This document shows, one piece after another, positions 24,697 to 28,619 of a stretch of 37,117 bases of DNA. Source of the DNA: a virus. The stretch is from IMG/VR virus record IMGVR_UViG_3300019477_000150; one strand, given 5' to 3'. The notes beneath the pieces were generated by a model. The model was not told the DNA's origin and did not search any database. It saw nothing but the letters and a program-made list of their open reading frames with translations. Position 1 is the first letter of the stretch. Every line of letters begins with the position of its first letter. A program made the position numbers and the translations under genes.

Positions 24697-24985
24697 TTTT
24701 AACTCCTTTTGATATTTAGATAGGCGATATTCTTTATCTCGCCGCCATTGCTGAAAAGCACCCTAAAAAATTTAATTAGCTTTCTCATCTCAAGCTCCTT
24801 TTTCTAATAGAAACCTTGCTCGCCACCGCCGACTGAAAGATGTTAAAAATTAATTTAGCTTGCAAAAGCAACTTTAAAGGAAAATTTTTTGTATGAAAAA
24901 TGTTAGAGGCTTTCGCCTACTCCAAGCAAGCAAGGCTTTTATTAGAAAAAGTGGTGTTTTTCGTTTTATTAATAACCCTGTGAAA

Positions 24986-25134
24986 AACTATCCTAAATCA
25001 GGGCTGGTACTGAGTGATAGCTTTTCGCCCTATCACTGACGCTTCAGATTGAAACGTGATTAAACCTGCAAACTCGCAGGAGGCTCACTCTGTCAGCTTT
25101 CGCTTGAAGCCTACAAAACGTTTTCCGTTTTCGA
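24986..25134. ncRNA. GC-rich structured element (several hairpins) in the early-left leader; candidate regulatory RNA or antitermination (nut/put-like) site.
   Basis: Hairpins AGTGATAG/CTATCACT (25023..25047) and CCTGC/GCAGG (25075..25090). Long-range pairing GCTTCA/TGAAGC. Ends in the palindrome AAAACGTTTT. Local GC is well above the AT-rich surroundings. Confidence 0.3.
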
Positions 25135-25141
25135 TGAGAGA

Positions 25142-25195
25142 AGTATAATATTATTGAACTTAAAAGAAAATAAAAAAGCTCAATATTATTGAACT
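25142..25195. promoter_or_regulatory. O_L-like operator pair: AGTATAATATTATTGAACT (25142..25160) and AGCTCAATATTATTGAACT (25177..25195).
   Basis: The same imperfect palindrome occurs three times in the cI/cro spacer. The two sites are 35 bp apart and overlap a TATAAT. Confidence 0.5.
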
Positions 25196-25451
25196 AAAAA
25201 AATATTTTAAAATTTGTTTTTAGAAATAGGCTGTGGTATAACTTGTTTGGATAAGTGAATGATACATTATGTGTCAAAAGAGATACAGTAATAAAAATGT
25301 TTTTATGGTATAATTTTAGAAAAATGGTGGCATTAGGCTAGCAATTAGCTGGGGTTATAGTAATTTAAACATCGACGTCTTTATCGTATTACTCTTTATT
25401 GTTGTGGGCGTAATAGCTTATTTAGTATTTTTTAAAATCAAGGAGGGCAAT

Positions 25452-25532
25452 ATGAGGAAAAACATAATTGGATTTGCTAAAAAAATGGCAGAGAAGATCG
25501 GTGGCGTTGTTTTGAATAAATTACTAGCCTAA
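25452..25532 (+). CDS. Tiny ORF (26 aa, MRKNIIGFAKKMAEKIGGVVLNKLLA) with a very strong SD, convergent on the nuclease gene.
   Basis: AAGGAGGG lies 6 nt before the ATG. Amphipathic, basic peptide. No homology can be asserted. Confidence 0.2.
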   Translation: MRKNIIGFAKKMAEKIGGVVLNKLLA

Positions 25533-25534
25533 GA

Positions 25535-25984
25535 TCAGCGTTTTCTCCACTCCCACGGCGGAGTAGGATTACTACTCTGCCAAAGCCCTCGCTTGTTCTC
25601 ACGAGCCAGCTTTTCTTGATCTACATACATTCTCGAGTATTTCATGTAAGCCCAAGCATAGCTATTTAGCACCATTTGAGCGTTTATGTCTTGCCCTTTA
25701 TGATGGATAATGCCTAGTGTGCGTTTATATCTATCTTTGCCCTTTGGCTCTACTTCTACAACTTGCCCTGCGATTAGGCTAGCCAAAAATTGTTTTGATC
25801 GTTGTCCGTAGTCTTGCTTTTTCTCTGGAGCGTCAATGCCATATAGCCTTACCTTTGTTTGCTCTTTGCCGCTTAGCACAGTGATAGTGTCGCCGTCAGA
25901 TATTTTTATGACTTTGGCTGAAAAAGCAAAGAGAGATAATGGAGAAACAAAAAGAAAACCGATCAAAAAAATATTTTTTATCAA
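25535..25984 (-). CDS. Secreted staphylococcal-nuclease-like thermonuclease (SNase fold) with Sec signal peptide.
   Basis: ...DGDT...RLYGIDAPE...DRYKRTL...GLW... align with the SNase catalytic blocks. N-terminal MIKNIFLIGFLFVSPLSLFAFSA is a signal peptide. TTG start overlapping the upstream stop (TTGA). Confidence 0.75.
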   Translation of the reverse strand: MIKNIFLIGFLFVSPLSLFAFSAKVIKISDGDTITVLSGKEQTKVRLYGIDAPEKKQDYGQRSKQFLASLIAGQVVEVEPKGKDRYKRTLGIIHHKGQDINAQMVLNSYAWAYMKYSRMYVDQEKLARENKRGLWQSSNPTPPWEWRKR

Positions 25985-26484
25985 TCGTCTTTCTTCTTGA
26001 AAAGTTCTTTTTGGTTTTTTTCTATCTCGCAGACTAAGTTTATTGAGTTTTGGGTTAAATCCATTACTTTTCTGTGCTCACCGTAGTAGGTAGTCTTTTT
26101 TTTGCAAAGTTCCTTTATGTACTCAAGGATGGAAATATCCGCTTTGTATATTTGTTCCAATAATGTTTTATATTCCCCAAGCATTTGTTCTTCTGATATA
26201 GTCTTTTCATAATAATCACTAATAGCTAGAGCGAATATATTAACTCTTATATAGTTTAGTCGGATAATAGCTAAATAATTAAGGGCTTCAATATTTGATG
26301 TAAGCTCTGCAATATTACCATCATAATCTTTTTTTAAAATTTTCGAGAAACAATCTTTTAAGACTAATAAACACTCCTTTTTCTCGTTGTCGGTCCTTTG
26401 TAATATATCTTTTGTTAGCAAATATAAAAAATTAAATAGAGTAAAAAATATAGCTATTGCAGAAAGCCACGCGGGGGTACTCAT
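25981..26484 (-). CDS. Single-pass membrane protein (N-terminal TM, helical soluble domain), 167 aa.
   Basis: Hydrophobic N-terminus AWLSAIAIFFTLFNFLYLL. A 6-nt gap separates it from the upstream gene, and it overlaps the downstream nuclease gene. Confidence 0.5.
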   Translation of the reverse strand: MSTPAWLSAIAIFFTLFNFLYLLTKDILQRTDNEKKECLLVLKDCFSKILKKDYDGNIAELTSNIEALNYLAIIRLNYIRVNIFALAISDYYEKTISEEQMLGEYKTLLEQIYKADISILEYIKELCKKKTTYYGEHRKVMDLTQNSINLVCEIEKNQKELFKKKDD

Positions 26485-26490
26485 AATTTA

Positions 26491-26826
26491 CTACTTTGTT
26501 ATTGGCTTAGAAAAAGCCCTAAATTTTTCTTCTAGCTTTGGATTATCCTTGCTGAATAATTTTATTCTCCTAAAAAACTCAGTTTCCCCTAGTTTTTCAT
26601 ATAAAGGTGAAAATGCTTCAGACAAAAAAGAGGGGTTAAAAGAGGTTTTTATCCCGCTGCCGTCTATATCTATAATGTCATATTTATCCAACAAACCCTT
26701 TAATACATCTTCTCTAAATTCTTCTCCAGACTTATCGCCAAGTCTTTTGTACCTAGGTCCTGGAGCATCCGTAAAATTCTCAGCAAAATTATATATAATC
26801 TTATTTTCCATCATTCTGCTCCTCAC
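26491..26826 (-). CDS. Small STAS-like (DUF4325-like) protein, 111 aa.
   Basis: ...IIDIDGSGIKTSFNPSFLSEAF...L...G resembles the DUF4325 'LDFeGV..isSSFldE.fg' block. It overlaps the ATPase gene by 26 nt. Confidence 0.45.
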   Translation of the reverse strand: MRSRMMENKIIYNFAENFTDAPGPRYKRLGDKSGEEFREDVLKGLLDKYDIIDIDGSGIKTSFNPSFLSEAFSPLYEKLGETEFFRRIKLFSKDNPKLEEKFRAFSKPITK

Positions 26827-27883
26827 TTAAATCTCTTATGGACCATCTAATGAATGTCCCTTGTATTTTGGATTTAAGTTTTATGATTTTATCATTTTTT
26901 GTTAAATATAAAAAGCTATCAGTTGCAACCTCTAGTGAAGCACTCTTACTCATATCTTGCTGAATAATATCTATAAAATTTTTAAAAGCTATCATCCCAA
27001 ACCCCCTGTTTTTGTTTTTGTCTTTATATTTTGATAGATTAGACCTACATAAAGTTCGCAAGGTATTCCCTTTCCCAATACGTTTTAATAATCTATGCAT
27101 GGCTATTGAAAACTTATTTTTTTCACTCTCTAATGATTTAAATATCCCCATGCCTGTATCATAGAAAATAAATTCAATTTCTTTGTCATCCTTATTGTAT
27201 GCACCCATAAACCATACTTTTTTATCCCCATCAAAATCAACAAAAGCGTGCTCGCTCGAGTTTGCCATTGCCTCAAAAATTGCATCAAATAACTCATCTT
27301 TATTTTTTTCTAAAATTTTATTCTCGCCAGCAAAAAAATCTATAATTGGATAGTGAAATTCGTTGTCTATTTGCACGCCATCACGATAATCTATTTTTAG
27401 GTATTTTTGCCCTTCTTTGATTGCTTCTTTTCTTGGGTTTATACACAATGCATCCCAATACCCTATGGCAGCCAATCTTTGATCTATTGATTTTATTGGC
27501 GAAATTTTACTACTTCTTATTAACTTTTGCCCACTAAAAATATTATTAATCCCAACAGTCATTAGAAGGATAGAAGCATTGTCGATTTCTCTCATCTTTC
27601 TATGATCCATAGACATTATGCAACTATGTCTTTTGTTTTGGTAATTTTTGAGTTTATCAAGTGTAGAATTTATGAGTTTTATATCTTCAGGGAAAACTAT
27701 TTTTTCAGGCATCTCAATTTTATATAGCACCTTATTTTTATGACACAAATCATGGGGAGGGTTAAAATTGTGCTCGTGAGTGCTTTTTTTATTTTTACGC
27801 TTAATTTTTTTTCGCACTTTTCGTCTATAATTTGGCACATCCGTAACCGAAGAAACTTTACTATTCTCTATAATAATTTTCAT
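26801..27883 (-). CDS. GHKL / histidine-kinase-like ATPase with a basic, Lys-rich N-terminal region, 360 aa.
   Basis: Bergerat-fold motifs in the correct order: N-box FEAMANSSEHA, G1 DTGMGI, G2 NRGFGMIAF. The start lies 31 nt after the repressor stop. Confidence 0.5.
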   Translation of the reverse strand: MKIIIENSKVSSVTDVPNYRRKVRKKIKRKNKKSTHEHNFNPPHDLCHKNKVLYKIEMPEKIVFPEDIKLINSTLDKLKNYQNKRHSCIMSMDHRKMREIDNASILLMTVGINNIFSGQKLIRSSKISPIKSIDQRLAAIGYWDALCINPRKEAIKEGQKYLKIDYRDGVQIDNEFHYPIIDFFAGENKILEKNKDELFDAIFEAMANSSEHAFVDFDGDKKVWFMGAYNKDDKEIEFIFYDTGMGIFKSLESEKNKFSIAMHRLLKRIGKGNTLRTLCRSNLSKYKDKNKNRGFGMIAFKNFIDIIQQDMSKSASLEVATDSFLYLTKNDKIIKLKSKIQGTFIRWSIRDLSEEQNDGK

Positions 27884-27914: not shown

Positions 27915-28619
27915 TTACTTTATCCCATAATCCTCAAACGTCAGCCCTTTATACACTTCGCAATGGACTTTACCGCAGACTTTGCCAAGTATCTCACACT
28001 CGTAGCCCTCTTTATGTGGGTATATGTCGCTATATTTTGGGTTTAGGCTGATTAGTTTTATTTTATTCTGTGGCAAAAACTCAACCCTTTTGATATAGAC
28101 TACGTCGTCCATTCTGACAATATAAACGCCAGCTATACGCACGAAGTTATCCCTACCTGCTACCATATCAGCAATAGCCCAGTCACCCTCGTAAAAATCA
28201 GGCTCCATGCTATCGCCTACCACTTCGAAAATGCGTAAATTTTTAGTATCAAGCCCTTTTAGAAAAGCTTTATCAACGGCAATCTTTCGCTCGTCTTTTT
28301 GAAGCATAGCGAGATCATAAACGCCCTCGCTACCTGCGCCTATACGCATTTCGGATTTTGGGACATATACCATATTTTCTTGAGGTTTAGAAAAAAGGCT
28401 TTGTTTTACAACCTCATTTACGTCTAATTTTAACACTTTAGCTACGCCTATCATATTTTTTAAGTCAGGCACAATAGGCTCTTTCATAAACCATTTTTTA
28501 ATAGCCGATTCTGTGATAGGGTAGCCTGCATTTGTCATATCTATTGCTAAATCGGCGTATCTAATCTTTTTTTCTTTCATTTTCTCTTTTAAAAAATCAG
28601 TGTTTAGCAGAAAATCCAT
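27915..28619 (-). CDS. cI/LexA-type phage repressor (N-terminal HTH, C-terminal S24 peptidase).
   Basis: GDSM (Ser) and YIKRV (Lys) catalytic dyad. Divergent from a Cro-like gene, with operator palindromes in the spacer. Confidence 0.85.
   Translation of the reverse strand: MDFLLNTDFLKEKMKEKKIRYADLAIDMTNAGYPITESAIKKWFMKEPIVPDLKNMIGVAKVLKLDVNEVVKQSLFSKPQENMVYVPKSEMRIGAGSEGVYDLAMLQKDERKIAVDKAFLKGLDTKNLRIFEVVGDSMEPDFYEGDWAIADMVAGRDNFVRIAGVYIVRMDDVVYIKRVEFLPQNKIKLISLNPKYSDIYPHKEGYECEILGKVCGKVHCEVYKGLTFEDYGIK

What the first reader, a model, noticed from the sequence alone, without database searches (positions are those of the whole stretch)
26491..27883. GHKL ATPase motifs and a DUF4325-like partner: partner-switching-like pair carried by a phage
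The 360-aa protein shows the three Bergerat-fold motifs in canonical order and spacing: N-box FEAMANSSEHA, G1 box DTGMGI about 20 residues after a conserved acidic patch, and G2 NRGFGMIAF about 50 residues later. They follow a Lys/Arg-rich N-terminal segment (KVRKKIKRKNKK) and a roughly 180-aa uncharacterised domain. The overlapping 111-aa gene carries a ...IIDIDGSGIKTSFNPSFLSEAF... block like the STAS-like DUF4325 family. By analogy to RsbW/RsbV or SpoIIAB/SpoIIAA (GHKL kinase plus STAS antagonist; established), the pair could form a phosphorylation or ATP-dependent switch controlling the downstream membrane and nuclease effectors.
Basis: partly seen in the sequence, partly recalled or inferred. 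Interest (0 to 1): 0.7.

Follow-up and report, generated by a model that had tools for sequence, protein, structure and literature searches.

The report
Prophage kinase–STAS–membrane protein cassette

Summary

1. The "uncharacterised" N-terminal domain is itself a STAS fold, preceded by a family-wide, highly basic ~50-residue tail.
2. The unit is three genes. The downstream TM-anchored 167-aa protein belongs to a family found only in this position. Trios occur in prophages and chromosomes of many phyla (at least 360 kinase cluster representatives at E ≤ 1e-10).
3. The closest known relative is VapK/VapS of VapKSC (Chambers et al., EMBO J 2026). The kinase family aligns to VapK over both domains (hhalign 97.9%), VapS is DUF4325, and its phospho-Ser48 maps within one residue of the near-invariant S66 here.

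Differences from VapKSC: no PIN toxin, no conserved ssDNA-stacking aromatic residue, and an added basic tail. The SNase is a Campylobacter-only, signal-peptide-bearing add-on.

Best model (inferred): the kinase phosphorylates S66 of the small protein, which releases or activates the membrane protein, giving Rex-like superinfection defence. This is a new variant of a known kind.

The parts
26801..27883 (-). K: 360-aa STAS + GHKL serine-kinase-like protein (VapK/CapK-like) with a basic N-terminal tail
27737..27883 (-). Basic, predicted-disordered N-terminal tail of K (res 1-49; KVRKKIKRKNKK at 22-33)
   Evidence: pLDDT below 50. Family-wide feature: median 54 aa, 34.5% K+R, median net charge +16, and 62 of 62 members at +5 or more. 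Absent from VapK, whose alignment starts at K residue 52.
27374..27736 (-). STAS-like domain of K (about res 50-170)
26828..27361 (-). GHKL (Bergerat) ATP-binding domain of K (about res 175-352)
27245..27277 (-). N-box FEAMANSSEHA (res 203-213; E204, N208, H212 invariant)
   Evidence: Aligned to RsbW EACTNAVQHAY and SpoIIAB EAVTNAIIHGY.
27143..27160 (-). G1 box DTGMGI (res 242-247; D242, G244 invariant, G246 nearly invariant)
   Evidence: Aligned to SpoIIAB DEGVGIP and VapK DFGVGIP.
26984..27010 (-). G2 / ATP-lid motif NRGFGMIAF (res 292-300; G294, G296 invariant, R293 nearly invariant)
   Evidence: Aligned to VapK PRGLGLHLL.
26843..26860 (-). G3-like motif GTFIRW (res 342-347; G342, W347 invariant, T343 nearly invariant)
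   Evidence: Aligned to VapK EGTILNI.
26491..26814 (-). S: 107-aa DUF4325 (STAS-like) protein, the predicted kinase substrate (the ORF also opens at GTG 26826, giving 111 aa)
   Evidence: Pfam PF14213, 38.2 bits against a cut-off of 23. Homologues are 105-107 aa. Gene callers use this start. VapS belongs to the same Pfam family at 62.7 bits. AF2 model pLDDT 81.3. Structural STAS matches are weak only.
26819..26824 (-). GAGGAG Shine-Dalgarno for S, inside the 3' end of K (translational coupling; 14-nt gene overlap)
   Evidence: Read from the sequence.
26629..26631 (-). Codon of S66 (numbered from the GTG; S62 from the ATG), the predicted phospho-acceptor at the N-cap of helix alpha2
   Evidence: Ser in 68 of 72 family members, within S-F-L-x-E-x-F (F67 72/72, E70 71/72). 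Helix 65-79 in the model. Within one residue of VapS S48 in hhalign.
25981..26484 (-). T: 167-aa protein with an N-terminal TM helix and a helical domain; third conserved gene of the cassette and the inferred effector
   Evidence: Homologous third gene in 7 of 7 first loci. The window-seeded HMM hits only third-gene positions: 56 of 56 hits among 2,385 ORFs. 42 of 53 genome loci hold K+S+T. No Pfam, PADLOC or PDB match.
26413..26472 (-). Predicted TM helix of T (about res 5-24)
   Evidence: Kyte-Doolittle 19-residue window maximum of 1.97 at residues 5-23. The same N-terminal position is hydrophobic in homologues.
25535..25984 (-). SNase-family nuclease with a signal-peptide-like N-terminus; a Campylobacter-clade add-on whose TTG start overlaps T's stop (TTGA). 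Probably not a core part
   Evidence: Pfam SNase E 1.4e-21. Present in L007-L011 only and absent in L001-L006 and L012-L064. Junction read.
27915..28619 (-). CI/LexA-like S24 repressor immediately upstream on the same strand (31-nt gap): genomic context, the lysogeny-side operon
   Evidence: Peptidase_S24 E 1.7e-16. phrog_4 transcriptional repressor E 4.8e-30. Junction read.

Best explanation
The finding is the first two genes of a three-gene cassette, K-S-T, carried in the accessory slot downstream of a Campylobacter prophage's CI-like repressor.

- K is a VapK/CapK-like serine kinase: a basic disordered tail, a STAS sensor domain, and a SpoIIAB/RsbW-type GHKL domain.
- S is a DUF4325 STAS-like protein homologous to VapS.
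- T is a small protein anchored by one N-terminal TM helix, with a helical and probably cytoplasmic domain.

Proposed mechanism, by analogy with VapKSC. In the resting lysogen, unphosphorylated S holds T inactive. An infection or stress cue, possibly a nucleic acid bound by the basic tail or the STAS-GHKL groove, activates K. K then phosphorylates S on the conserved Ser at the N-cap of helix alpha2 (S66). Phospho-S lets go of T, and T damages or depolarises the membrane. The outcome is abortive infection or superinfection exclusion that protects the lysogen population, much as lambda rexAB does from the same genomic position.

Shown here: the folds and domain architecture; conservation of the catalytic motifs; homology of K to VapK; S and VapS belonging to one Pfam family; the conserved Ser; the strict K-S-T gene linkage across phyla; and the tight, overlapping operon structure.

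Inferred: kinase activity, S66 as the acceptor, S-T binding, T as a toxic effector, the trigger, and the defence phenotype.
For: - K fold and motifs.
- K is homologous to VapK across STAS and GHKL: hhalign 97.9%, E 4.9e-13, 268 columns.
- S is DUF4325 and VapS is DUF4325. S66 is Ser in 68 of 72 members, at a helix N-cap, and in register with VapS S48, give or take one residue.
- In VapKSC, phosphomimetic S48E abolishes toxin binding and S48A abolishes defence (PMC13373217). In CapKS, S54 is phosphorylated by CapK.
- Linkage: a DUF4325-like gene directly follows K in 51 of 52 genome loci. T-family genes are found only at the third position, 56 of 56 HMM hits among 2,385 ORFs. The same trio occurs in a Helicobacter prophage, Marinobacter phage AS1 and four metagenomic loci, and a matching layout is tabulated for Francisella phage KIRK.
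- Flanks are unrelated between loci and include integrases, IS elements and some RM/RT/MADS genes, so the cassette is autonomous and mobile.
- Overlapping or adjacent genes with an internal SD indicate co-translation and fixed stoichiometry, as in toxin-antitoxin operons.
- Position directly after cI on the same strand in several different Campylobacter prophage backbones.
Against: - No experiment and no co-fold.
- T has no similarity to any known toxin or pore-former, so its toxicity is pure inference. About a third of the d2 proteins do not reach my TM threshold, partly because their starts are uncertain.
- The direct S-to-VapS profile match is weak (E 0.032). Their kinship rests on shared Pfam membership.
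- The aromatic residue needed for ssDNA activation in CapK (W68) and VapK (F54) is not conserved here (window E99), so the trigger may differ.
- PADLOC has no model for any of the three proteins. The immediate flanks are mostly housekeeping genes, so enrichment in defence islands is not demonstrated.
Confidence: 0.55

Rival explanations
1. Classical partner-switching. K would be an anti-sigma factor/kinase that sequesters a host or phage sigma factor, S would be its antagonist, and the output would be transcription of downstream genes.
For: The best fold matches are SpoIIAB, UsfX and RsbW. Family members hit the NCBIfam SpoIIAB and RsbW models. The partner is STAS-like.
Against: There is no sigma factor or PP2C phosphatase gene in the cassette in any of about 60 loci. 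The only conserved third gene is the TM protein T. K carries its own STAS domain and a basic tail, unlike the ~140-aa anti-sigma factors. The homology to VapK is full length. Flanking genes are not conserved.
Confidence: 0.08
2. T is the sensor or anchor rather than the effector. T would tether K-S at the inner membrane and report an envelope event such as phage DNA injection or membrane stress. The kinase output, via S or other substrates, would act on an unidentified target or on prophage induction or lysis timing.
For: T has no recognisable toxin domain. The basic tail of K could bind acidic phospholipids as well as nucleic acid. The cassette lies next to the lysis-lysogeny switch in several phages.
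Against: The cassette is just as common in non-prophage chromosomal sites in many phyla. A self-contained three-gene unit with no conserved fourth gene fits a sensor-antitoxin-effector logic better. The characterised homologue uses the third gene as the effector.
Confidence: 0.17
3. A CapKS-like transcriptional regulator pair. K would phosphorylate S to de-repress the downstream genes (T, SNase).
For: CapK/CapS are homologous in architecture and sit upstream of effector operons.
Against: S is only 107 aa: a STAS core plus one short helix, with no wHTH or other DNA-binding domain. The gene after S is always the same family (T) rather than variable immune operons. The genes overlap or abut, leaving no promoter or operator space between S and T (6 nt).
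Confidence: 0.04
4. K is a non-kinase GHKL ATPase (a MORC-, Hsp90- or MutL-style clamp or chaperone) that uses ATP hydrolysis to remodel S/T or nucleic acid, with no phosphotransfer.
Confidence: 0.06

Closest known systems
VapKSC toxin-antitoxin/anti-phage system (VapK STAS-GHKL kinase, VapS STAS antitoxin, VapC PIN toxin); Chambers et al., EMBO J 2026, PMC13373217
   Same: - A three-gene operon in the order kinase, small STAS protein, third gene.
- K aligns to VapK over both the STAS and GHKL domains (hhalign 97.9%).
- S and VapS are both Pfam DUF4325, of similar size (107 and 116 aa), with a conserved Ser at the alpha2 N-cap (S66 and S48).
- Mobile, with a patchy phylogenetic distribution.
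   Different: - The third gene is a TM-anchored helical protein of an orphan family, not a PIN nuclease.
- K has a ~50-residue, highly basic N-terminal tail that VapK lacks.
- The ssDNA-stacking aromatic residue (VapK F54) is not conserved.
- S has an extra conserved F..PGxR..SGxxFR N-terminal motif.
- The window copy is prophage-borne, next to cI.
- No function has been tested.
CapK/CapS regulators of CBASS, Bub and Thoeris operons (same paper)
   Same: A STAS-GHKL kinase followed immediately by a STAS-domain substrate gene, with phospho-Ser on STAS helix alpha2.
   Different: CapK has an N-terminal HTH and CapS has a C-terminal wHTH and is a repressor. Here S has no DNA-binding domain, and the downstream gene is always T rather than variable immune operons.
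SpoIIAB/SpoIIAA and RsbW/RsbV partner-switching modules (also SiaB/SiaC)
   Different: There is no sigma factor and no PP2C phosphatase. The kinase is fused to its own STAS domain and a basic tail. The output is apparently a membrane protein.
Phage lambda RexA/RexB (own knowledge: an exclusion system co-transcribed with cI; RexB is a membrane protein that depolarises the cell when RexA is triggered)
   Same: Same genomic logic: genes expressed in the lysogen immediately downstream of the repressor gene, with a cytoplasmic sensor plus a membrane protein.
   Different: No sequence or fold relationship was detected. Rex has no kinase or STAS component. The resemblance is positional and functional only.

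Membership tests
GHKL / Bergerat-fold ATPases and kinases | N-box (E...N), G1 (DxGxG) and G2 (GxG lid) motifs in order, conserved in relatives | tested here: met
   E204, N208, D242, G244, G294 and G296 are invariant and G246 and R293 nearly invariant in 62 diverse members. 30 of 62 hit HATPase_c_2 and 22 of 62 hit HATPase_c. The window protein alone is sub-threshold (E 0.076).
GHKL / Bergerat-fold ATPases and kinases | Alpha/beta sandwich fold superposable on solved GHKL domains | tested here: met
GHKL / Bergerat-fold ATPases and kinases | ATP binding and hydrolysis or phosphotransfer | not testable with these tools
   Needs biochemistry. No ligand-aware prediction was available.
VapK/CapK-type STAS-GHKL kinases with a STAS substrate (PMC13373217) | Kinase with a STAS domain N-terminal to the GHKL domain | tested here: met
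VapK/CapK-type STAS-GHKL kinases with a STAS substrate (PMC13373217) | A small STAS-domain protein gene immediately downstream | tested here: met
   51 of 52 loci. Both the window S and VapS are PF14213.
VapK/CapK-type STAS-GHKL kinases with a STAS substrate (PMC13373217) | Absolutely conserved Ser/Thr on STAS helix alpha2 of the substrate | tested here: met
   S66 is Ser in 68 of 72 members at the N-cap of helix 65-79, within one residue of VapS S48.
VapK/CapK-type STAS-GHKL kinases with a STAS substrate (PMC13373217) | Conserved aromatic residue in the STAS domain that stacks on activating ssDNA (CapK W68, VapK F54) | tested here: not met
   The aligned column is E99 in the window and K/E/T/R/Y across the family. 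An alignment error of one or two residues is possible, but no neighbouring column is conserved-aromatic except position 94 (H or F).
VapKSC operon | Third gene encodes a VapC-like PIN nuclease toxin | tested here: not met
   The third gene is a TM-anchored orphan protein. No PIN or other Pfam hit in 54 members.
VapKSC operon | S binds and neutralises the third protein, and phosphorylation releases it | not testable with these tools
Needs AF3 or AF-multimer and toxicity-rescue assays.
Anti-sigma partner-switching modules (SpoIIAB/AA, RsbW/V) | Cognate sigma factor and PP2C phosphatase encoded with, or functionally tied to, the pair | tested here: not met
   The cassette has only K, S and T. Flanks are not conserved, and neither a sigma factor nor PP2C is among the recurrent flanking families. 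Only the top 25 of 165 flanking families were displayed, so isolated cases cannot be excluded.
DUF4325 (PF14213, STAS-like) | Score above the Pfam gathering threshold | tested here: met
   38.2 bits against 23. Precomputed PF14213 is recorded on most homologues.
DUF4325 (PF14213, STAS-like) | STAS fold by structure comparison | tested here: inconclusive
Known anti-phage defence systems (PADLOC-DB v2.0.0) | Match to any PADLOC protein model | tested here: not met
   No consistent hit for K, S or T.

The most novel reading that the evidence does not exclude
K-S-T is a widespread, previously unrecognised anti-phage or exclusion system in which a basic-tailed STAS-GHKL kinase senses an infection cue different from the ssDNA sensed by CapK/VapK. 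Candidates are incoming phage nucleic acid or an event at the membrane. The kinase would then use phosphorylation of a DUF4325 antitoxin to unleash a new class of single-pass membrane effector. In temperate phages of Campylobacter, Helicobacter, Francisella and Marinobacter it would occupy the rexAB-like slot beside the repressor, as a lysogen-protecting module.
Probability: 0.4. Interest if true: 0.75.

Novelty: new variant of a known kind. Interest (0 to 1): 0.62.

Why it matters
The kinase–STAS logic for gating bacterial immune effectors was described only in 2026, for a repressor output (CapKS) and a PIN-toxin output (VapKSC). This finding adds a third output class, a membrane protein of an orphan family. 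It also comes with a distinct kinase clade marked by a very basic tail.

The clade seems at least as abundant as the two published ones: 360 cluster representatives at E ≤ 1e-10 and 1,636 at E ≤ 1e-3, against 289 vapKSC and 443 capKS instances reported. It spans many phyla and several temperate phages.

If the model is right, three things follow:
1. It would extend the evidence that the K–S pair is a modular sensor-switch that can be wired to different effectors.
2. It would give a function to a large share of DUF4325 proteins and to phrog_3364.
3. It would identify a new prophage-encoded superinfection-exclusion module in Campylobacter and Helicobacter, where few such systems are known.

Copies in Pantoea, Vibrio, Pseudomonas and Shewanella make it directly testable.

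Tried and rejected
- Nucleotide search of the region against GenBank phages found nothing.
- Single-sequence PDB searches for K and S gave only chance hits.
- PADLOC and NCBIfam on the window proteins gave nothing for K or S.
- The DsrE Pfam hit in K (E 5e-4, below cut-off) was rejected as a reflection of the Rossmann-like STAS fold.
- The weak PADLOC 'aspartyl protease' hits of T (E about 0.003-0.006) were seen in only one member and rejected.
- A profile scan of genomes with the very diverse alignment A3 failed for lack of a conserved stretch. A subgroup alignment (A5) worked.
- The third word-indexed homologue search, with profile A3, added only three new proteins.
- Fold searches for S were weak or negative. 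The PDB copies predate release of the CapS and VapS-VapC entries (9Z71-9Z73 and 9Z7O), so no direct structural comparison was possible.
- Promoter and terminator scans gave no more hits than shuffled sequence.
- Rfam found nothing in the window.
- The idea that K's own STAS domain carries the phospho-acceptor was rejected. The equivalent position is Pro or Asn (column 102).
Full report

Both ORFs are on the minus strand as described: 26801..27883 (360 aa) and 26491..26826 (111 aa from a GTG). Every quoted peptide is present at the stated relative positions: the basic stretch at residues 22-33, FEAMANSSEHA at 203-213, DTGMGI at 242-247 and NRGFGMIAF at 292-300.

On its own the 360-aa protein only grazes Pfam HATPase_c_2 (E 0.076, below threshold). 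The small protein passes the DUF4325 gathering score (38.2 bits against 23). PHROGs places the large protein in phrog_3364, of unknown function (E 1.7e-34). PADLOC and NCBIfam have nothing for either protein.

**2. The GHKL call stands up.**

Close homologues come from Campylobacter species. An exhaustive profile search found 1,636 cluster representatives at E ≤ 1e-3 and 360 at E ≤ 1e-10. Nearly all are 340-390 aa and match full length.

In an alignment of 62 members that are only ~17-25% identical to the window protein, the invariant residues are E204, N208, H212, D242, G244, G294, G296, G342 and W347. A213, G246, R293 and T343 are nearly invariant. That is the N-box, G1, G2 and a G3-like GT box. 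The N-box has the SpoIIAB/RsbW flavour (E-x-x-x-N-x-x-x-H-A-Y).

Thirty of 62 members reach HATPase_c_2 and 22 reach HATPase_c individually. Eleven hit the NCBIfam SpoIIAB model and nine hit RsbW. The family profile aligns its N-box and G1 to those of RsbW and SpoIIAB in the PDB.

**3.

So the architecture is a basic tail, then a STAS domain, then a GHKL domain. The tail is a hallmark of the family. Its median length is 54 residues, with 34.5% K+R and a median net charge of +16, and all 62 members have a net charge of at least +5.

**4. The small protein.**

Homologues are 105-107 aa, and most carry a precomputed PF14213. A GAGGAG Shine-Dalgarno lies 4 nt before the ATG at 26814, inside the last codons of the kinase gene. 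The real product is therefore most likely 107 aa, with a 14-nt overlap.

The AF2 model (pLDDT 81.3) is beta-alpha-beta-alpha-beta-alpha, and the invariant S66 caps helix alpha2 (residues 65-79). Across 72 family members this position is Ser in 68, inside a near-invariant S-F-L-x-E-x-F motif.

**5. The unit is three genes, not two.**

In every locus I could examine, the kinase gene is followed by a DUF4325 gene and then by a 130-260-aa gene with no Pfam hit. The loci were:
- a Helicobacter prophage and Marinobacter phage AS1;
- four metagenomic or genomic loci, comprising a P2-like prophage, an IS110-flanked Bacteroidota-like chromosome, a polysaccharide locus and a housekeeping region;
- five Campylobacter prophage variants.

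The Francisella phage KIRK gene table shows the same layout: CI repressor, a 293-aa hypothetical protein, a 112-aa DUF4325 protein and a 125-aa TM protein (PMC7924643).

The third proteins share an N-terminal TM helix and helical-domain motifs.

A genome scan with a distant subgroup returned 53 loci. They come from Verrucomicrobiota, Planctomycetota, Bdellovibrionota, Desulfobacterota, Nitrospinota and many Proteobacteria, including Vibrio, Pseudomonas, Shewanella and Pantoea. Of these loci:
- 51 of 52 have a DUF4325-like gene directly downstream (E from 1e-31 to 5e-5);
- an HMM iterated from the window-type third genes reaches 44 of 52 third genes;
- in a control against all 2,385 ORF segments of all loci, that HMM hits only third-gene positions, 56 of 56;
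- 42 of 53 loci score for all three genes. The rest are cut by contig ends, degraded (one locus), or carry a divergent third gene linked only through a second, less stringent iteration.

Flanking genes are unrelated between loci. Most are housekeeping, with four integrases, an IS66 transposase, a phage GPA gene and a few RM, RT or MADS genes. The trio therefore behaves as an autonomous mobile cassette.

The third protein has no match in Pfam, PADLOC or the PDB.

**6. The nuclease is not core.**

The SNase-family gene (E 1.4e-21) follows the trio in all Campylobacter copies but in no other lineage. It begins with a signal-peptide-like hydrophobic segment, so it is probably exported. A cytoplasmic kinase switch is unlikely to gate it.

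**7. Closest known system.**

A literature search led to Chambers et al., EMBO J 2026 (PMC13373217). That paper describes two systems.
- **CapK/CapS.** CapK (HTH-STAS-GHKL) phosphorylates CapS (STAS-wHTH) on a conserved alpha2 serine when ssDNA activates it, which de-represses immune operons.
- **VapKSC.** VapK (STAS-GHKL), VapS (a 116-aa STAS antitoxin; S48E abolishes toxin binding) and the VapC PIN toxin form a three-gene anti-phage toxin-antitoxin system.

I recovered the VapK and VapS sequences from the paper's AF3 model file and compared them:
- VapS is a DUF4325 protein (62.7 bits). This also explains the older remark that the PIN.4 group is 'transcriptionally coupled to DUF4325' (PMC5499597).
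- The kinase family aligns to VapK over 268 columns spanning both domains (probability 97.9%, E 4.9e-13).
- The direct S-to-VapS profile alignment is weak (E 0.032) but in register, putting VapS S48 within one residue of S66.

The differences are these:
- the third gene is a membrane protein, not a PIN nuclease;
- VapK lacks the basic tail;
- the aromatic residue required for ssDNA activation (CapK W68, VapK F54) aligns to a non-conserved, non-aromatic column (E99 here).

The paper does not mention membrane-protein variants, prophage copies or this clade. No other paper in the library uses these names. Three other papers in the library mention DUF4325; in the two I read it appears only in a table.

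**8. Mechanism.**

Best-supported model (inferred, by homology and gene linkage):
1. S keeps T inactive.
2. A cue activates K.
3. K phosphorylates S at S66.
4. T is released and compromises the membrane.
5. The result is abortive infection or exclusion that benefits the lysogen.

The tight packing supports co-expression with the repressor and fixed stoichiometry, although promoter and terminator scans were uninformative. The spacing is: cI, a 31-nt gap, K, a 14-nt overlap, S, a 6-nt gap, T, then a 4-nt overlap with the SNase.

The position mirrors lambda rexAB (own knowledge). The trigger is open. The basic tail suggests nucleic acid or acidic lipid binding, and the published ssDNA contact is not conserved.

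Rival readings are listed with their weights: a classical anti-sigma switch, T as a sensor, a CapKS-like regulator, and a non-kinase ATPase. None is excluded by experiment, but each fits the gene-linkage data less well.

**9. Verdict.**

The enzymology class and the pairing are right. The closest analogue, the acceptor site and the role of the nuclease are wrong, and the N-terminal STAS domain and the three-gene unit were missed.
- It is a new variant of a very recently described kind: abundant and phylogenetically broad, with an orphan membrane partner.
- The key mechanistic steps are untested, and the co-fold could not be run here.

Noticed in passing
window 25535..25984 (-): An SNase-family nuclease with an N-terminal signal-peptide-like segment (MIKNIFLIGFLFVSPLSLFAFSA). 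Its TTG start overlaps the stop codon of the membrane protein (TTGA). It follows the cassette in all Campylobacter prophage copies but in no other lineage. From my own knowledge, prophage-encoded DNases of C. jejuni integrated elements inhibit natural transformation, so this could be a comparable lysogenic-conversion gene.
   Followed up: partly
window 24697..25534: An ORF-poor gap of about 840 bp downstream of the nuclease (no ORF of 50 aa or more), with no Rfam match. In related prophages the same slot holds different cargo: DUF7424 plus HSDR_N-domain genes in L009, and a 190-aa gene in L010. It looks like a variable accessory-gene hotspot.
   Followed up: partly
L006:3118-3468 (and protein P0037): The DUF4325 gene as called by the source (116 aa) reads through an in-frame TGA (…ANS*YLQ… under table 11). 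P0037 shows …ANSWYLL…, as if TGA had been read as Trp. Either the caller used an alternative code or the true protein ends at 104 aa.
   Followed up: no
L020 (and L013), same Verrucomicrobiae MAG: One MAG carries two copies of the cassette. L013 looks intact. L020 has a shortened kinase ORF and no detectable DUF4325 gene, yet its third gene is intact (HMM E 4e-15). If T is a toxin, an S-less T is unexpected unless the intact copy supplies S in trans or the locus is silent.
   Followed up: partly
window 27915..28619 (-) and L007-L011: The cassette sits directly downstream of an S24 (LexA/CI-type) repressor in most Campylobacter copies. In Campylobacter sp. RM16192 (L011) it lies a few small genes downstream of a Phage_CI_repr-type gene instead. 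The cassette has moved between different prophage backbones with different portal and terminase types.
   Followed up: partly
phrog_5816 (profile positions 335-432 of 441) against window 26491..26826: The small protein matches the C-terminal ~100 positions of a 441-residue PHROG profile (E 1.2e-9). This suggests that some phages encode DUF4325 fused to a larger N-terminal region, possibly a natural kinase-substrate fusion. I could not retrieve members to check.
   Followed up: no
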